Shown: positions 5,110-28,674 of the stretch, one piece after another
Numbering within the stretch: position 1 is the first letter of the stretch
Layout: every line of letters begins with the position of its first letter
NCBI GenBank assembly: GCA_043822705.1
Contig: JBDRBK010000115.1
Coordinates: 1-64,000, forward strand
DNA from: Fidelibacterota bacterium
Lineage (GTDB): Bacteria > Fidelibacterota > Marinisomatia > Marinisomatales > TCS56
Direction of reading: 5' to 3'
Length of the DNA stretch: 64,000 bases
Position numbers and translations under genes: made by a program
Notes under the pieces: model-generated
What the model saw: only the letters and a program-made list of their open reading frames with translations
The model's database searches: none
What the model was told of the DNA's origin: nothing

Positions 5110-7668
5110 ATGTTAAATAGAGCGCTGATAAGTGAGTCCTTCCGGCGGCACCAGATATTTCCGTTGGCATTTATTATTGGTGGTTTATTAGGCGGTTGTG
5201 CCGTCAGACAAGAGCAGCGTGATCTGGCGGTTACATTCGATGGTCCGGCGCGGATTGAAGTCGGCGGTCCATTCGTGGGTGCCGAATTTCACAACAGCTA
5301 CCCGGTGCCCCAGCGGATCAGCTTTTTCTATCCCATCGCCAACAGTATCGATCAGAGTAACGATTACTGGACCCGTGATAGCAGTGTGATAATGACCGTC
5401 GGTCTACAAATCGGTGACAATCCCCGTCTGGATCTGAGCCGGTTGCCCACTTCATTCAATCTGACACCTTTCAACGTTGGTTTTAGTCAGAACCACCCTA
5501 AAAGCACCATTGAAATTGATTACCAATTCTGCCAATCCAAGCCGGCTATGGTTGTGACAATTTCAGTGACCAATACCGGTTCCGAAACAGAACTTTATCA
5601 GTTGGACACCAGGCTGACCACCGCCCTGCGCACCTGTCATACTTTCCGCCGCATAGAAACCGGCTGGACCAGCTATGACGAAGTCACGGCCACCCTGATT
5701 ACCCGCTATACCGATGAAGAAGTGAGCAATGTCTGTGTCTTTGTGATGAACGGTGGTGCGAAAGCCGAACTGGTGTCAGCGCCGGTTGCGGAAGATGACC
5801 CGAGTAAAACCGCCGCCGCGTTTCGCTATCAGGAGAAACTTGCGCCCGGAGCAACGCTGCAGGCGGTCCAGGTGATCGGTTCCTGCTATGCGGAAGAAAC
5901 CAACGATCTGGTCGAGTACCTCAGCGGGAATTATAGACGCGAAGTCGAACAGTTTGAAACCGCAGTTCTGGTCAAAGCGTCGAACGAGTTTTTATTCGAT
6001 ACCGGAGATAATGTGCTTAATCATTCGGCGCACTGGGCAAAATCGACGCTCGCCGTTTTAGATCATTATCTGGACGGTGAAATCGTACCCATGCCCTGTC
6101 CGGCGGAGTATAATTTCTACTTCACGCACGATGCCCTGGTCACCGATCTGGCAGCGGTGAATTTCGATCTGCCGCGGGTGCGCCGGGACCTGGAATACCT
6201 GCTCAAACACGCCAACGACCAGCATATCATTCCCCATGCTTATTACTGGAAAGATGGTGAATACCGAACCGAATACGCCGATTCTAACAACTGGAACCAT
6301 TTCTGGTTCATCCAGACTGCCGCCAGCTACCTGCGGCATTCCGATGATTTAAACCTGCTCCGGCGCTGTTATCCGTATTTAAGCCAAAGCCTGGAATATG
6401 CCCTCCACAGCCGGGAAGATGACGGCCTGTTGTATGCTTACTATCTGGACGGCTGGGATATCGGACACAATTTCGGCCCACGGGCCTTCATGACCATTAT
6501 GGCTCTGAAGGGCATTCGGGATTATGTCTATATCTCCACTGTTTTGGGAGAAAATTCAGGGCGCATGGTCGAATACGAGCAACTAGCCGATGAAATGGAA
6601 CAGGCGCTGGCCGAGCGATTATGGAACGAAGAAGCCGGCTATCTGATCAATTATTATGAGAACGGCGACATTGATCCGCACTACTATGCCGGTTCACTGC
6701 TGGCCGCTCATTTTGGTCTGCTGGATCAGGAAAAAAGTCAGCGTTTGATCGCCACTGCCACTACCAAACTGGTCGATCCGGCCATTGGCGTCTACACGGT
6801 CTACCCCCCGGATTTTCACTTGCTGGGCGATTTTCTGAAATTCAAGGGCGACGAGGTAGGCCCGCCCTATGTTTATGCCAACGGTGCCGTCTGGAATCAC
6901 TGCAACGCCTGGTATGCCCTGGGACTGATGGCCGGCGGGGAACGTGCCGTGGCCCACGATTTTATCCGTCGGATCATGACTATTGATGGCATTATGAACA
7001 GCCCCAACGGTCAGCCGGCCATGTACGAATACCGCAACAGCAATCAGGGCGATACGGCCGTGTACGGTCGAATTGACAAGCCGCAATTCCTCTGGGCTGC
7101 CGGCTGGTATCTGTATGCGCTATACCATTTATATGGAGTCGAAGAGAATAGCTGGAACATTGCATTTCAGCCCTATCTGCCGGCGGGGCAGCAATCCAGT
7201 GAATTCGATCTGACCCTGGCCGGCCGGAAAATCCGGATAGCGGTAAGTGGAGAAGGCGAATACCTGCAGGCGATTCGCTGTAACAGCACGAACATTGACT
7301 GCGCCGTATTCTCACCGGATCTGATTACTGGTGATCGAATTGAATTAGTACTTGGCTCACCGGAAACTCCCTATCTGGCAGGCGCAGAAGCGATCGTCGA
7401 ATCCTGTGTCTACCAGACCGACCGGCAGCGACTGGACCTGGTATTGGCAGCCTTCCCCGGTCACCGGAATACAGTAACCGTGGTGGCACCAGTAGCACCG
7501 CAGGAAATTTACCTGGATGGTCAGCCATTTCAAGGTTCCTGTACTGTCGCCAAGCGTGGTTCGGTACAACTTATCTCACTTGAAATTCCCCATAATGCTC
7601 CCCGGGCGAACGTGACGCTGCATTTTGCAGCGGCGGAAGACAATCAAGGATTAAGCGATGAAAATTGA
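5110..7668 (+). CDS. Lipoprotein with an (alpha/alpha)6-barrel glycoside hydrolase/phosphorylase-like domain (paralog 1)
   Basis: Lipobox LLGGC; 'YANGAVWNHCNAWYAL' and 'QFLWAAG' resemble six-hairpin glycosidase C-terminal motifs. Confidence 0.6.
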   Translation: MLNRALISESFRRHQIFPLAFIIGGLLGGCAVRQEQRDLAVTFDGPARIEVGGPFVGAEFHNSYPVPQRISFFYPIANSIDQSNDYWTRDSSVIMTVGLQIGDNPRLDLSRLPTSFNLTPFNVGFSQNHPKSTIEIDYQFCQSKPAMVVTISVTNTGSETELYQLDTRLTTALRTCHTFRRIETGWTSYDEVTATLITRYTDEEVSNVCVFVMNGGAKAELVSAPVAEDDPSKTAAAFRYQEKLAPGATLQAVQVIGSCYAEETNDLVEYLSGNYRREVEQFETAVLVKASNEFLFDTGDNVLNHSAHWAKSTLAVLDHYLDGEIVPMPCPAEYNFYFTHDALVTDLAAVNFDLPRVRRDLEYLLKHANDQHIIPHAYYWKDGEYRTEYADSNNWNHFWFIQTAASYLRHSDDLNLLRRCYPYLSQSLEYALHSREDDGLLYAYYLDGWDIGHNFGPRAFMTIMALKGIRDYVYISTVLGENSGRMVEYEQLADEMEQALAERLWNEEAGYLINYYENGDIDPHYYAGSLLAAHFGLLDQEKSQRLIATATTKLVDPAIGVYTVYPPDFHLLGDFLKFKGDEVGPPYVYANGAVWNHCNAWYALGLMAGGERAVAHDFIRRIMTIDGIMNSPNGQPAMYEYRNSNQGDTAVYGRIDKPQFLWAAGWYLYALYHLYGVEENSWNIAFQPYLPAGQQSSEFDLTLAGRKIRIAVSGEGEYLQAIRCNSTNIDCAVFSPDLITGDRIELVLGSPETPYLAGAEAIVESCVYQTDRQRLDLVLAAFPGHRNTVTVVAPVAPQEIYLDGQPFQGSCTVAKRGSVQLISLEIPHNAPRANVTLHFAAAEDNQGLSDEN

Positions 7669-24973: not shown

Positions 24974-25852
24974 TCACAACCGCTCCTTCTCCACCTTAAC
25001 TCCCATTATCCCGCCCGGCCTCAACAGCAGAAAGATAATTAAAATACCGAAGGCGATGGCATCTTTCCAACCGGATTGGATTTTCCATATCCCCAGGTTT
25101 TCCGCCAGGCCCAGAAAGTACCCCCCCAACACCGCCCCGGGGATACTACCGATCCCGCCGATGATCGAAGCAATTATCCCTTTCAGGATGGCATTGAAAC
25201 CCATGGTCGGTTCCAGGTTGGTCTCGTAGGAGATCAAAATCCCTGCCATCGCCGCCAGGGCCGAACCGATGGCAAAGGCGATCATAATGGTTTTTTCGGG
25301 ATCGATGCCCACCACCCCGGCCGCCAGCGGATCGTCAGACACCGCCCGCATGGCCTTGCCGATTTTAGCGGACTGTACAAACCACCATACCAGTAAAAAT
25401 AAAACGATGCTGATGACCAAAATAATTATCTGAATGTCGGTGATTACCGCTCCAAGAATATGGTGCCCTTCTTTGATTTCACCGGTGCGAATGCTGAGTA
25501 TTTGGGCACCGTAAATCAATTGAATCAGGTTCTGCAGGAAAACGAACACCCCGAAGGACGCCAACAGAAAAATAAGGTTTGATGCTTTCTTTTTTCGCAG
25601 GGGTGCATAAACCAGGCAGTCGATACCGATTCCAATAATTGTAGTGATGACAATCGAAATAATTAAGCTGATAATAAAAGGAAATTCTAATGTTCGAATT
25701 AATGTATACGCCAGGTAAGCCCCGATTGTATAAACAACACCATGGGCGAAATGGAAGAAATTGACAGTGCGGTAAATCAGGGTAAAGCCAATGGCGATCA
25801 GGGAGTAGATGGAGCCAGCAATGAGACCGTTTGCTATAAGTTGATTAATCAT
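24974..25852 (-). CDS. livH: Branched-chain amino acid-type ABC permease (LivH-like)
   Basis: 'NGLIAGSIYSLIAIGFTLIY', 'FAHG', 'GKAMRAVSDD', 'GGIGSIPGA'. Confidence 0.9.
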   Translation of the reverse strand: MINQLIANGLIAGSIYSLIAIGFTLIYRTVNFFHFAHGVVYTIGAYLAYTLIRTLEFPFIISLIISIVITTIIGIGIDCLVYAPLRKKKASNLIFLLASFGVFVFLQNLIQLIYGAQILSIRTGEIKEGHHILGAVITDIQIIILVISIVLFLLVWWFVQSAKIGKAMRAVSDDPLAAGVVGIDPEKTIMIAFAIGSALAAMAGILISYETNLEPTMGFNAILKGIIASIIGGIGSIPGAVLGGYFLGLAENLGIWKIQSGWKDAIAFGILIIFLLLRPGGIMGVKVEKERL

Positions 25853-26046
25853 AATTTACCATTGCTACTGATTTCCAATCATTAAATGGAAACGTTATAT
25901 CCTTAGCTTGCAGAGATTTTATGAATGGTTGTCTTATAAAATATGTAAATCCTTGAAGAGTCTTCATAACCATAAGTCTGATAGAGGGGGTATCCATTTA
26001 ACTTTTATGTTAACATCCAATGATTAATGGAACTCCTCAGTACTTT

Positions 26047-26212
26047 TCTATCCAGCTATTCTTTTATAAGCAGACACCGTTATCTTGGGGCTGCAGGATC
26101 GTAATTTTACGCTGACTAGGGTGGGGTGCATTCTGTGTATAGCAGATATTAGTAGTTACTGGTACTGCAGTTAAGTGGACAGCACTATTCCCACGATATG
26201 ATTTTGGATAGA
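26047..26212 (-). ncRNA. Predicted IS110 bridge RNA/seekRNA with target-binding and donor-binding loops
   Basis: Two internal loops, each around a GCAG/CTGC stem, carry four segments matching the target and donor flanks; RNA ends are approximate. Confidence 0.8.
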
Positions 26213-26213
26213 G

Positions 26214-27284
26214 TTAAGCGATTCCGACCTCATAGTTTGTTTCGTTAAGTAGTACGAAGCGTATGCGCCGTAGCAGTTTTCGAGCGATACGAATGATGGC
26301 ACGATTACCATTCATACGATTGGTTAAGTTTTGGTAGGTACTTATTAATCCCGGATCATTCCTTAATGCTGCCCAGCTGTTCTCGATCAACAAGGTCTTT
26401 AGTATTCGGTTGCCTCTAGTGTCGATTCCGAAGACGTTCTGTTTTTCACCGCTGGATTTTTCTCTTGGGATAAGACCAATATAGCAAGCTAATTGATCAA
26501 TAGACTGGAACCGATTAATATCCACCAATTCAGTCAACCAGGTCATAGCGCTAATAATACCAATACCAGGGATGGTTATTAAGTGTTTAACCTGCTGGCG
26601 ATACCGGTCATTTTTGGCGAGCTCACGGATTTTACTGTCAATAGCGAGTTCCTGTTGGTTAAAAAACCGGTATTGATCAATCAGATTAAGTAATGAATCT
26701 GTCCCTGTACTTGAGTGCATTCGATCAGGATCACTGGCCCAGTCGAGAAAAGCTTTGGACCAACAACGGCCTTGATAGCAGTCCGGTGTCTTGACGCCAT
26801 GGAAGCGCAGCAGGCTTTTAATACGGTTCTTTGTTCGGGTTTTATCTTTAATCAACCTCAAACGCTGGCGCATCAGAGCACGATCTTCCCTGGCAGTAAT
26901 GGATGGTATATAAACAGAGTTTAGCTCACCGTTCTTCAGGCTTTTGGCAATCCGTCTACTATCACGTGGATCCGACTTATGGCGTTTATCCTTATCAGTA
27001 ATGGGAATATCAGCGGGGTGTATGACATGACAATCAATGCCCAGTGACTCCAGATGATCATGTACCCAAAACCCATTGTAACCAGCTTCATATGCAACAT
27101 GATAATCTGCTCCAGGAAAGTTGCGTTTGAGATATGTCACAAGCTTATCTGGTTCCGGTGGCTGATTAAATGTTTTATGTTCAAACTGCTCAGTATGGAT
27201 GCTGACAGACCAACTCTTATTATGAACATCGATTCCAACAAAAATAGATTGACCGGTGAAATCCAATCGTTTATTTTGCACCAT
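26214..27284 (-). CDS. IS110-family recombinase/transposase
   Basis: DEDD RuvC-like motifs 'FVGIDVH', 'YEAG', 'KSDPRDS'; 'TIPGIG'; C-terminal 'GLIPREKSSG' serine motif. Confidence 0.95.
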   Translation of the reverse strand: MVQNKRLDFTGQSIFVGIDVHNKSWSVSIHTEQFEHKTFNQPPEPDKLVTYLKRNFPGADYHVAYEAGYNGFWVHDHLESLGIDCHVIHPADIPITDKDKRHKSDPRDSRRIAKSLKNGELNSVYIPSITAREDRALMRQRLRLIKDKTRTKNRIKSLLRFHGVKTPDCYQGRCWSKAFLDWASDPDRMHSSTGTDSLLNLIDQYRFFNQQELAIDSKIRELAKNDRYRQQVKHLITIPGIGIISAMTWLTELVDINRFQSIDQLACYIGLIPREKSSGEKQNVFGIDTRGNRILKTLLIENSWAALRNDPGLISTYQNLTNRMNGNRAIIRIARKLLRRIRFVLLNETNYEVGIA

Positions 27285-27343
27285 AATAGGGTTCCTCTTG
27301 TTATTGCGATGATAACGTAAGTTATCACTTGAGGAGCCCTATT
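27285..27343 (-). promoter_or_regulatory. Leader hairpin that pairs the transposase ribosome-binding site
   Basis: aatagggttcctc (27285-27297) / gaggagccctatt (27331-27343) are a 12/13 inverted match; inner stem tgataac/gttatca; abuts the ATG. Confidence 0.65.
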
Positions 27344-27384
27344 TCTATGCTGTTAAACATACGATCTGTGTAAATGGTATTTTG

Positions 27385-28602
27385 TCAGTCATTGTGAACC
27401 ATTCGATCTTCAAACAGAATGGCAAAGTGATTCATGGCCTCTTTCCAGTTTTGTATGGGCATGGTCCACTTTTTACTGGCATTTTCCAAGGCTAAATATA
27501 ATATTTTAAAGATCGCATCGTCATTAGGGAATGAGCCCCGGGTTTTGGTCACCTTCCTCAGCGACATGTTCAAGGACTCAATCGCATTGGTGGTATATAT
27601 TGCTCTTCGTATCCCTTCCGGGTAGCCGAAGAATGGAGTCAACCGCTCCCAGTTGTTACTCCAGGATTTACTAACGGTAGGATGAGTTTTGTCCCACTTC
27701 TGAGCAAAGGTATCCAGATTCTCACGGGCCTCTTCAGCTGTGCCGGCACTGTAGATGGTCTTCAGATCATCGGCCATCTCTTTTCGCTGTTTCCACGATA
27801 CATACTTTAAGGAATGACGGATCATATGAACAATACAGAGCTGAACCTGAGTATCAGGGTAAACCGTCTCAATAGCATCAGGAAAACCCTTTAATCCATC
27901 GACGCTGGCAATGAAAATATCGTTTAGGCCTCTGTTCTTTAACTCTGTCAATACACCCAGCCAGAACTTGGCTCCTTCAGTCTTGGCGATCCACATACCC
28001 AGAACATCCTTGATACCTTCCACATTGATACCAATGGCCAGGTAGACAGCTAAATTGGCAATATGTCCTTCTGAGCGTCCTTTAATACGAATAGCGTCCA
28101 GATAGACAATCGGGGACAGTGGGTCAAGCGGCCGGTTCTGCCAGGCTCTAACCTCAGCAAGTACTGCATCTGTTACTTTGGATACCAGAGAGGGAGATAC
28201 TTCTACTCCATAAATATCTTTCAGCTGCGCTTGAATATCACGAGTGGTCATTCCCCGGGCGTACATAGCTATAATTTTATCATCAAAACCATCAAAGCGG
28301 GTCTGACGTTTTTTGATCAGCTGGGGTTCGTAGGTACCGTTACGATCACGGGGTACATCGACTGGGATTTCGCCCAGATCGCCTTTGAGAACTTTATGGC
28401 CTTTTCCGTTACGGGAGTTACCGGTATTATTACCTGTCTGTGAATGAGGAGGATAACCCAGATGATCGGTCATCTCTCCTTCAAGGGCACGCTCTACAAT
28501 GATCTTGGTCAGTTGCTTCAATAAACCGTCTTTACCAAGAATATCTTCTGGACTATCGCAGTCTTTTAATAATTCATCTATCAATTCATCTTTTCTGGTC
28601 AT
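27385..28602 (-). CDS. IS256-family (Mutator-like) DDE transposase
   Basis: 'NSRNG', 'VPRDRNG', 'MYARGMTTRDI', 'VYLDAI', 'DGLKGF', 'QLCIVH', 'IYTTNAIES'. Confidence 0.97.
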   Translation of the reverse strand: MTRKDELIDELLKDCDSPEDILGKDGLLKQLTKIIVERALEGEMTDHLGYPPHSQTGNNTGNSRNGKGHKVLKGDLGEIPVDVPRDRNGTYEPQLIKKRQTRFDGFDDKIIAMYARGMTTRDIQAQLKDIYGVEVSPSLVSKVTDAVLAEVRAWQNRPLDPLSPIVYLDAIRIKGRSEGHIANLAVYLAIGINVEGIKDVLGMWIAKTEGAKFWLGVLTELKNRGLNDIFIASVDGLKGFPDAIETVYPDTQVQLCIVHMIRHSLKYVSWKQRKEMADDLKTIYSAGTAEEARENLDTFAQKWDKTHPTVSKSWSNNWERLTPFFGYPEGIRRAIYTTNAIESLNMSLRKVTKTRGSFPNDDAIFKILYLALENASKKWTMPIQNWKEAMNHFAILFEDRMVHND

Positions 28603-28674
28603 CGTTAACTCCTTTTTTTGACTCTGAGTTTATTTTATCGATAACCATTTACACACTTAGAAATACACCCTCAG

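What the first reader, a model, noticed from the sequence alone, without database searches (positions are those of the whole stretch)
26047..26212. Fully decodable IS110 bridge RNA programmed against an IS256 terminal repeat
Seen: on the minus strand, 3' of the recombinase, there are two similar modules. Module 1 is GTGC-TG-TCCACTTAACT-GCAG...CTGC-TATACACAGA-AT-GCAC. TGTCCACTTAACTG (26181-26168) matches the empty target TATCCATTTAACTG at 12/14, and TACACAG (26139-26133) is the reverse complement of the right flank CTGTGTA (27366-27372). Module 2 is CAGC-GTAAAATTACGATCCT-GCAG...CTGC-TTATAAAAGAATA-GCTG. TACGATC (26103-26097) equals the element end at 27360-27366, and ATAAAAG (26067-26061) is the reverse complement of the other end CTTTTAT (26002-26008). 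All four segments converge on the same CT dinucleotide, in the order target-left, target-right, donor-left, donor-right. An 8-bp inverted pair (26047-26054/26205-26212) brackets the region. Established: IS110/IS1111 recombinases use bridge/seek RNAs with separate target and donor loops, and IS621 uses a CT core. Inference: this is a natural, probably reprogrammable RNA-guided recombinase with target ~CCA(T/C)TTAA-CT-GTGTA and donor TACGAT-CT-TTTAT. I cannot tell whether this particular element has been described.
Basis: partly seen in the sequence, partly recalled or inferred. Interest (0 to 1): 0.92.

Follow-up and report, generated by a model that had tools for sequence, protein, structure and literature searches.

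The report
RNA-guided IS1111 element in IS256 end
A small jumping gene that finds its landing site with its own guide RNA sits inside the end repeat of another jumping gene; the guide can be read off the sequence, but this is a new example of a known kind of element.

Summary

- **What it is:** an intact IS1111-group (IS110 family) insertion sequence at 26004-27365(-). It lies at a duplicated CT/AG dinucleotide, 16 bp inside the right inverted repeat of an IS256-family element.
- **The RNA:** the 210-nt region 3' of the recombinase holds a two-module RNA. A covariance model built only from distant relatives (46-49% protein identity) finds it as the single hit in the window (26046-26196(-), E 7e-7).
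- **Structure:** 13 of 33 helix pairs show compensatory changes.
- **Guides:** across about 20 related elements, the two sides of loop 1 track each element's own flanks (0 of 20,000 permutations). One side of loop 2 tracks the right element end in 22 of 22. The other donor segment is supported only in this element.
- **Retargeting:** a decayed second copy in the same genome has a changed guide and sits in a different IS256-type end.
- **Empty target:** uninterrupted IS256 ends in two related genomes match the guide at 13 of 14.
- **Not shown:** RNA expression.

RNA guidance in IS1111 elements and targeting of other transposons' ends are both published. This scan has also noted IS110/IS1111 elements in IS256 ends in other genomes. 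Verdict: a real, cleanly decodable new member of a known kind.

The parts
26004..27365 (-). IS1111-group insertion sequence (1362 bp without the core copies)
   Evidence: The junctions read. The flanks join to an IS256-type inverted repeat. Only AG/CT is duplicated.
26002..26003 (.). Core dinucleotide copy at the right end of the element (CT on +, AG on -)
27366..27367 (.). Core dinucleotide copy at the left end of the element
26214..27284 (-). Recombinase, 356 aa, intact
   Evidence: Pfam DEDD_Tnp_IS110 and Transposase_20. NCBIfam NF033542 'IS110 family RNA-guided transposase', 216.8 bits against cut-off 140, profile positions 1-340 of 343. GLIPREKSSG motif.
26046..26196 (-). Two-module bridge/long-seekRNA core
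   Evidence: Only hit in the window of model R1, which was built from 17 sister-clade RNAs: 38.4 bits, E 6.9e-7.
26169..26181 (-).
   Evidence: 12 of 14 to the flank here. 13 of 14 to uninterrupted IS256 ends L021 and L091. Covaries with the flank in relatives.
26132..26139 (-).
   Evidence: 8-nt exact match, against at most 5 to non-cognate flanks.
26097..26109 (-). Loop 2, 5' side (D1; donor-left): complementary to the left element end
   Evidence: 7 nt exact. 13 nt at 85% (repeat I8). No support from relatives.
26060..26067 (-). Loop 2, 3' side (D2; donor-right): identical to right end plus core plus the first base of the left end
   Evidence: 8 nt exact. The matching 5-mer agrees with the right end in 22 of 22 elements across 3 sequence states.
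26121..26194 (-). Module 1 helices: GTGGG/CCCAC, GTGC/GCAC, GCAG/CTGC
   Evidence: Aligned to the model's helices. Compensatory changes against the sister clade.
26047..26120 (-). Module 2 helices: CAGC/GCTG (or the longer CCTAGTCAGC/GCTGGATAGA) and GCAGCC/GGTGTCTGC
26205..26212 (-). 5' arm of the 8-bp bracket (partner 26047-26054)
   Evidence: Used in the minimum-free-energy fold. 7 of 8 kept in L002 without covariation. The sister clade has an enclosing helix predicted at a similar place.
27351..27360 (-). Left subterminal inverted repeat (ATGTTTAACA), preceded by a 7-bp extension that includes the core
   Evidence: By eye.
26007..26015 (-). Right subterminal inverted repeat (TGTTAACAT), followed by a 3-bp extension AAA
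   Evidence: By eye.
27285..27343 (-). Hairpin in the 5' leader that covers the ribosome-binding site
   Evidence: Inverted repeat I1, 20 nt, 80%.
27385..28602 (-). IS256-family transposase of the host element
   Evidence: Pfam Transposase_mut, E 2.7e-121. NCBIfam transpos_IS256, 422.8 bits.
25986..26001 (.). Outer 16 bp of the split IS256 right inverted repeat
27368..27380 (.). Inner part of the split IS256 right inverted repeat
28645..28672 (.). IS256 left inverted repeat, 21 of 28 identical to the rejoined right repeat, with GT at the core position
   Evidence: count by eye.

Best explanation
This is an IS1111-group member of the IS110 family. Its DEDD recombinase is guided by an RNA encoded in the 210-nt non-coding region 3' of the gene.

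- **Module 1 is the target-binding loop.** Its 5' side pairs with the recombinase-sense strand of core plus downstream flank. Its 3' side pairs with the opposite strand of upstream flank plus core.
- **Module 2 is the donor-binding loop.** It reads the joined element ends in the same way.
- **Both loops meet on the AG/CT core,** where strands are exchanged. The circular element therefore enters 16 bp inside the right inverted repeat of IS256-type elements.

Shown here: the anatomy, RNA homology and structure covariation, guide-flank covariation in relatives, and a naturally retargeted second copy.

Inferred from published work on ISEc11, ISPa11, ISKpn4 and IS621: that the RNA is made, binds the recombinase and directs recombination; that the element moves through a circle; and that it is co-transcribed with the recombinase from a junction promoter.
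For: 1. **Protein.** The recombinase carries both family domains and is full length.

2. **IS1111 end anatomy.** Subterminal repeats ATGTT(T)AACA, extensions of 7 bp (left, with core) and 3 bp (right), an 81-nt left end against a 210-nt right non-coding region, and a 2-bp duplication only.

3. **RNA homology.** Model R1 was built from 17 RNAs found 3' of recombinases 46-49% identical. At E <= 10 it gives exactly two hits in 66,071 bases: the flagged region (E 6.9e-7) and the second genomic copy L002 (E 5.9e-9).

4. **Structure.** On 20 sequences, 96.8% of cells pair, against 31.8-44.3% when partners are slid. 13 of 33 pairs change on both sides, and 0 of 500 shuffles reach this (the alignment was fitted to the model).

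5. **Target guides.** For 20 unique guide/flank combinations on the right side and 16 on the left, the cognate longest matches sum to 167 and 126. The non-cognate mean is 5.0 per pair. 0 of 20,000 permutations reach either sum. L034 and L035 differ by one guide base and by the matching flank base.

6. **Donor guide.** The D2 5-mer equals the right end in 22 of 22 elements, with three states: ATAAA, ATAGA and ATAGG.

7. **Second copy.** L002 is 84% identical overall but 5 of 13 in G1 (my count on the alignment). Its G1 matches its own flank, another IS256-type end, over 7 nt.

8. **Empty target.** Uninterrupted IS256 right ends in genomes G005 and G006 match G1 at 13 of 14, and the one difference allows a G-U pair. 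They also carry the G2 target.
Against: - **No RNA evidence.** Contigs from two RNA libraries lie only inside the reading frame (26421-26641) and could be DNA carry-over. Nothing covers 26004-26213.
- **No Rfam match.** No Rfam 15 family matches.
- **Fold energy is ordinary** (z -0.71).
- **Imperfect guide match here.** G1 has one C-A mismatch and one G-T wobble against the IS256 copy it sits in.
- **D1 is weak outside this element.** It matches the left end at 6 of 6 only here. In 22 sister elements the same register gives 4-5 of 6, no better than the 4 of 6 cross-clade background (the background is my own count).
- **Some cognate matches in relatives are short.** L009 G1 4 nt; L013 and L024/L025 G1 6 nt; L015 G2 4 nt; L029, L030 and L033 G2 5 nt.
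- **One-base junction discrepancies.** Five sister elements and L093 have right junctions that differ by one base from what guide and end predict.
- **No evidence of recent movement.** Only one full copy is assembled.
Confidence: 0.88

Rival explanations
1. Only module 1 is a guide, as in the short seekRNA. Module 2 is a precursor or scaffold part of the long transcript, and the element ends are recognised by the protein through the subterminal repeats rather than by RNA.
For: For ISEc11 the 82-nt short seekRNA, which holds only the target matches, was sufficient and even more efficient than the long form. The role of the 145-170-nt long form is stated as unresolved (PMC11187229, passages). 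D1 has no support from relatives.
Against: D2 follows the right end in 22 of 22 elements through three sequence states. D1 is complementary to the left end over 13 nt at 85% in this element. Module 2's helices are conserved with compensatory changes. Durrant et al. report donor-complementary nucleotides in IS1111 RNAs (PMC11208160, passage).
Confidence: 0.15
2. The internal copies of end and flank sequences act at the DNA level, for example as extra recombinase binding sites or remnants of nested ends. No RNA is involved.
For: The matches are equally visible as DNA repeats (I8 and I25). No transcript was seen.
Against: The segments sit in the unpaired sides of helices that keep pairing through compensatory changes. 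That is a constraint on a folded single strand. The family precedent is RNA (PMC11187229, PMC11208160).
Confidence: 0.04
3. Chance resemblance: the four short matches in an A+T-rich region mean nothing.
For: Single matches are reached by 0.7-6.7% of shuffles.
Against: All four together are reached by 0 of 20,000 shuffles. There is also independent covariation in relatives and an independent model hit.
Confidence: 0.01

Closest known systems
IS1111-group elements with a 3' seekRNA / bridge RNA (ISEc11, ISPa11, ISKpn4, ISPst6; Siddiquee et al. 2024, PMC11187229; predicted in 93% of IS1111 entries by Durrant et al. 2024, PMC11208160)
   Same: - DEDD recombinase with the GL-P----SG motif.
- Subterminal inverted repeats with 7-bp and 3-bp extensions.
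- Long non-coding region downstream of the gene.
- The segment pairing with the top strand lies 5' of the one pairing with the bottom strand.
- The ~150-nt two-module RNA is within the published long-seekRNA size range of 145-172 nt.
   Different: - A different target (an IS256-type inverted repeat).
- The recombinase was not compared directly with the named elements.
- Donor-matching nucleotides lie in a simple internal loop that mirrors the target loop. Durrant et al. say that in many IS1111 elements they lie in a multi-loop.
- No experiment on this element.
IS621 bridge RNA (IS110 group; Durrant et al. 2024, PMC11208160)
   Same: - Two internal loops, each with two guide segments that pair with opposite strands and overlap on a 2-nt core.
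   Different: - The RNA is encoded 3' of the gene, not in the left end.
- Guide order is reversed relative to the gene.
- Long subterminal repeats.
- The core reads AG on the recombinase-sense strand.
IS4321 / IS5075 (IS1111 family; Partridge and Hall 2003, seen only as a reference entry)
   Same: IS1111-type elements that insert at one position inside the terminal inverted repeats of another transposon.
   Different: Their host is the 38-bp repeat of Tn21-family transposons. Here it is the repeat of IS256-family insertion sequences.

Membership tests
IS110 family (DEDD recombinase) | N-terminal DEDD/RuvC-like domain plus C-terminal Transposase_20 domain | tested here: met
   PF01548 E 2.5e-17 and PF02371 E 1.8e-19. 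NF033542 216.8 bits, above cut-off 140.
IS1111 group | GL-P----S(t)G motif in the C-terminal domain (PMC11187229, section 6) | tested here: met
   GLIPREKSSG in the translation.
IS1111 group | Subterminal inverted repeats, usually 11-13 bp | tested here: met
   ATGTTTAACA (27360-27351) against ATGTTAACA (reverse complement of 26015-26007). 9-10 bp with a one-base indel, so slightly shorter than usual. By eye; the repeat tool did not list it among its 25 longest.
IS1111 group | Terminal extensions of 7 (or 6) bp on the left and 3 bp on the right beyond the repeats | tested here: met
   AG+ATCGT = 7 bp on the left and AAA = 3 bp on the right, with the core counted on the left. The sister clade shows the same pattern: AG+ACCTT and AGA/AGG.
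IS1111 group | Longer non-coding region downstream of the recombinase gene | tested here: met
   210 nt (26004-26213) downstream against 81 nt (27285-27365) upstream.
IS1111 seekRNA / bridge RNA | Segments complementary to both target strands that overlap at the insertion point, with the top-strand match 5' of the bottom-strand match | tested here: met
   G1 (26181-26169) and G2 (26139-26132) overlap on the core. Both covary with flanks in relatives. That 'top' in the paper means the recombinase-sense strand is my assumption.
Bridge RNA (two-loop, Durrant definition) | Donor-binding loop with two segments that pair with opposite strands of the joined ends, each including the core | tested here: inconclusive
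   D2 is met (22 of 22). D1 matches here (7 nt exact; 11 of 13), but it covers only one core base and has no support in relatives.
IS1111 seekRNA / bridge RNA | RNA is transcribed and co-purifies with the recombinase | not testable with these tools
   Public runs gave only short contigs inside the reading frame.
IS1111 seekRNA / bridge RNA | Changing the guide changes the insertion site | not testable with these tools
   Only natural analogues are available: L002 and the sister-clade target classes.
Rfam families | Match to a curated RNA family | tested here: not met
   No relevant hit at E <= 10 in 25700-27700.

The most novel reading that the evidence does not exclude
The window element, its decayed sister copy and similar elements noted elsewhere in this scan belong to IS1111-type lineages that live as specialised parasites of IS256-family elements. 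They follow the divergence of IS256 end repeats by changing a few guide bases and disable their host element's right end. This lineage also has an unusually simple, symmetric two-internal-loop RNA, which would make an IS1111-type system as easy to program at both target and donor as IS621.
Probability: 0.4. Interest if true: 0.45.

Novelty: new member of a known kind. Interest (0 to 1): 0.3.

Why it matters
This element gives a clean natural example in which all guide segments of an IS1111-type RNA can be read from sequence. It comes with a set of about ten related target classes that serve as a natural table of guide-to-target pairs, and with one case of retargeting inside a single genome.

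That is useful for people who annotate insertion sequences in metagenome-assembled genomes or who mine compact RNA-guided recombinases. It adds IS256-type ends to the list of transposon ends used as landing sites.

It does not change the understanding of the mechanism.

Tried and rejected
- **Rfam 15** on 25700-27700 at E <= 10: two irrelevant weak hits.
- **Single-sequence folding:** energy not different from shuffles.
- **Empty target in this window and genome:** none in the window. The IS256 element is single-copy in the assembly.
- **14-nt G1 pattern in 233 genomes of the order, up to 1 mismatch:** 66 genomes had a match, but the reversed-pattern control was about as frequent. Of the 32 loci I read, only 1 (L091) lay in an IS256-type end. 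The one exact match outside this genome (L090) lies in unrelated sequence.
- **Public sequencing runs:** no run held more than 0.18 of the sampled words. Laid contigs cover only parts of the reading frame and the left junction, and none cover the RNA region, so nothing can be said about expression.
- **Promoter and terminator scan of 25900-27500:** 3 promoter-like sites against 4.5 expected. None lies just upstream of the RNA, and there is no terminator after it.
- **Model R1 over 151 genomes of the order:** only the own second copy and one orphan RNA in G088. The window hit itself was lost under the stricter filters.
- **Decoding D1 in the sister clade by the window's rule:** no better than background.
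- **Literature:** one full-text search for IS110 family + IS256 + terminal inverted repeat + target listed 6 papers. None describes this targeting in its title or abstract start (listing only). I did not search further, so I do not claim it is unpublished.

Full report
**1. The observation**

I read the minus strand of 25800-27600 and listed the reading frames. From 5' to 3' on the minus strand, the region contains:
- an IS256-family transposase gene at 27385-28602 (Pfam Transposase_mut, E 2.7e-121; NCBIfam transpos_IS256);
- 17 nt further on, the sequence ...CCATTTACAC-AG;
- an element that starts ATCGTATGTTTAAC, carries a 356-aa reading frame (26214-27284) and ends ...GATGTTAACATAAA;
- then AG-TTAAATGGATACCCCC.

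Only AG (CT on the + strand) is repeated at the two junctions.

The two flanks together resemble the other end of the IS256 element (28672-28645) at 21 of 28 positions (my count). The element therefore splits the right inverted repeat of the IS256 element 16 bp from its outer end.

**2. Chance**

I shuffled the 151-nt RNA region 20,000 times.

| Segment | Shuffles reaching the observed value |
|---|---|
| G1 | 141 |
| G2 | 560 |
| D1 | 1346 |
| D2 | 794 |
| All four together | 0 |
| Three or more | 1 |

- The reverse complement of the region scores 8 of 14, then 5, 4 and 5.
- None of 41 windows of the coding part reaches the observed value on two measures.
- The single-sequence fold is no more stable than shuffles (z -0.71), although it does contain the bracket and the module 1 helices.
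- Rfam 15 has no matching family.

**3. What the element is**

The protein has both IS110-family domains. It matches NCBIfam NF033542, 'IS110 family RNA-guided transposase', over the whole profile. The features that define the IS1111 group in Siddiquee et al. (PMC11187229; I read sections 6, 9 and 13 plus passages) are all present:
- the GL-P----SG motif, here GLIPREKSSG;
- subterminal inverted repeats ATGTT(T)AACA;
- extensions of 7 bp on the left (counting the core) and 3 bp on the right;
- the long non-coding region downstream of the gene (210 nt against 81 nt upstream).

In the element's own orientation, the 5' side of loop 1 is complementary to the recombinase-sense strand and the 3' side is identical to it. 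This is the order that paper reports for IS1111 elements, and the reverse of IS110-type elements such as IS621. In IS621 the left target guide pairs with the bottom strand and lies 5' (PMC11208160, passages).

**4. Relatives**

- The genome is an assembly of 218 contigs. It holds one full copy plus fragments of a second, 84-90% identical copy at two contig ends.
- L002 keeps the last 380 nt, including the RNA and the right end.
- Protein-based scans found 13 loci in genome contigs and 36 in metagenome contigs. Full-length matches were mostly 46-49% identical, and many came from records titled Syntrophales or Smithella.
- Of the 45 loci checked (9 of the 13 genome loci and all 36 metagenome loci), 20 had both recognisable ends. 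Two more (L011, L036) had the RNA but no right end.
- These 'sister-clade' elements have the same end anatomy (AG+ACCTT, then the repeat; AGA or AGG on the right) and a clearly alignable RNA 3' of the gene.

**5. RNA structure**

- I aligned 17 distinct sister RNAs. I dropped L006, L014, L025 and L026 as identical to kept rows, and L011 because its 3' part diverges.
- On these 17, my four-helix structure pairs in 97.1% of cells, against 29.6-43.6% when partners are slid. Only 3 pairs change on both sides.
- A covariance model built from these 17 alone gave exactly two hits at E <= 10 in the window plus L002: 26046-26196(-) at 38.4 bits (E 6.9e-7) and L002 at 47.6 bits. This is independent recognition of the flagged region.
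- After aligning 20 sequences to the model, 13 of 33 pairs change on both sides and 96.8% of cells pair, against 31.8-44.3% slid. 0 of 500 shuffles reach this. This alignment was fitted to the model and so leans towards it.

The bracket:
- It overlaps the GCTG stem by 2 nt.
- The model instead pairs GCTGGATAG with CTAGTCAGC just 5' of module 2.
- On a longer sister alignment, RNAalifold predicts a 6-bp helix enclosing both modules. An enclosing helix is therefore plausible for the family, but which pairing holds in the window is open.

**6. Guides and flanks**

For 24 loci I extracted the four loop sides, the flanks and the ends.

Target guides:

| Comparison | Unique combinations | Cognate longest matches, sum | Non-cognate mean per pair | Permutations reaching the sum |
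|---|---|---|---|---|
| Reverse complement of G1 against downstream flank | 20 | 167 | 5.0 | 0 of 20,000 |
| G2 against upstream flank | 16 | 126 | 5.0 | 0 of 20,000 |

- The sets comprise roughly ten target classes. Related elements share targets, so the rows are not independent.
- Short cognate matches:
  - G1: L009 (4); L013, L024, L025 and the window (6 each).
  - G2: L015 (4); L029, L030 and L033 (5 each).
- In the window, G1 is interrupted by its two non-matching positions.
- A telling pair is L034 and L035, whose guides differ at one base and whose flanks differ at the matching base.

Donor guides:
- The five bases of D2 before the core equal the right end in 22 of 22 elements, with three states: ATAAA in the window and L002, ATAGA in 14, and ATAGG in 6.
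- D1 is complementary to the first six bases of the left end at 6 of 6 in the window. It extends to 11 of 13 (repeat I8).
- In the sister clade the same register gives only 4-5 of 6, which equals the 4 of 6 that the window's D1 gives against the sister left end (my count). D1 is therefore the least supported segment.
- D1 reads only one of the two core bases.

**7. The target**

- The second copy, L002, shares the scaffold, but its G1 differs from the window's at 8 of 13 positions (my count).
- Its downstream flank is another IS256-type end (AAATCGGATATACCCC). This resembles the right ends of IS256 relatives in sister genomes, such as ...ACACAAAATCTTGGACACCCCC in L019.
- Its G1 matches that flank over 7 nt including an AA 'core', while its G2 and D2 still read AG. 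This looks like natural retargeting between IS256 variants. The copy is decayed and its left end is missing, so the case is suggestive only.
- Searching the IS256 3' part in the 9 genomes of the family gave matches in 4, counting the own genome. One of them (L021, genome G005) carries an uninterrupted right end...CCATTTACACAG-TTGAGTGGACACCCCC. A second such end is L091 in G006.
Against the IS256 copy in the window it matches 12 of 14, with one G-T wobble and one C-A mismatch. The guide thus fits a sister variant of the repeat better than the copy it occupies.
- The left repeat of the same IS256 has GT at the core position and four further differences in the G1 footprint. That fits its being unoccupied.

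**8. Expression**

- No public run held more than 0.18 of the sampled words.
- Contigs from two RNA libraries lie at 26421-26641, inside the reading frame. None covers the RNA region, and contigs cannot show strand or ends.
- The consensus scan found no promoter just upstream of the RNA and no terminator after it. This is compatible with, but does not show, the published view that the long RNA is co-transcribed with the recombinase from a promoter formed at the circle junction (PMC11187229, discussion passage).
- By eye, the joined ends would place TTGGAT and TATGTT 17 nt apart. That is a weak match and an inference only.

**9. Comparison with what is known**

- RNA guidance in IS1111 elements was shown experimentally for ISEc11, ISPa11, ISKpn4 and ISPst6 (PMC11187229).
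- Bridge RNAs were predicted in the right end of 93% of IS1111 entries, with target- and donor-complementary loops (PMC11208160, passage).
- Insertion of IS1111 members into the end repeats of other transposons is known for IS4321 and IS5075. I saw that paper only as a reference entry.
- Earlier notes of this scan describe IS110/IS1111-type elements at one position inside IS256 end repeats in other genomes (e1-7870707, e1-7870703, e1-7932332). I did not check them.
- One full-text search did not list a paper on IS256 ends as a target (listing only).
- What is somewhat particular here is the simple, mirror-like internal loop for the donor. Durrant et al. say many IS1111 RNAs hold donor nucleotides in a multi-loop.
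- Also particular are the within-genome retargeting and the set of related target classes.

**10. Verdict**

This is a new member of a known kind, of moderate-to-low interest.

Noticed in passing
L002 (G000:C214) and L003 (G000:C133): The second, decayed copy of the element is broken. L003 holds 141 nt of the gene and L002 the last 380 nt. At the break both run into unrelated sequence with similar inverted ends (...CCGCGCGATTTTTAA / TTCAAAAATCGCGGCG...) and a repeated AAAC, as if another small element had inserted into the recombinase gene.
   Followed up: partly
window 27285-27343: A 20-nt inverted repeat (80% complementary) in the 5' leader would fold over the ribosome-binding site just before the recombinase start. 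The sister clade has a similar pairing (GGCAAGTCTC / GGAGGCTCGCC). This may be translational control.
   Followed up: no
L008, L026, L033, L032, L010 (right junctions); L093: In five sister-clade elements whose right target starts with G, the right junction is one base shorter than the right end, core and guide predict. In the orphan L093 it is one base longer. I have no explanation. It could be slippage at the core, decay or a boundary error.
   Followed up: partly
L093 (G088:C86, about 5650-5880): An RNA of the window's own clade, with a right end ...CAACATAAA-AG, lies without any recombinase gene upstream. Its G1 matches its own, different flank over 8 nt. It is either a relic or a non-autonomous element.
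   Followed up: partly
L008/L026/L032/L033 flanks: Several sister-clade elements sit in palindromic repeats (for example GGGAATGACAGAGAGGTGTCATTCCC), which look like repetitive extragenic palindromes. That is the usual kind of target for this family.
   Followed up: no
window 26026-26039 and 27330-27343: A 14-nt inverted repeat (79%) links the right non-coding end with the left leader, beyond the subterminal repeats.
   Followed up: no
window 28645-28672: The left repeat of the IS256 element has GT where the right one has the CT core, and it differs in the guide footprint. It is unoccupied.
   Followed up: yes
window 26214-27284 (protein): There is a weak sub-threshold match of residues 138-280 to the NCBIfam model for the TIGR-Tas RNA-guided endonuclease (20.7 bits, cut-off 100). 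It is probably meaningless.
   Followed up: no
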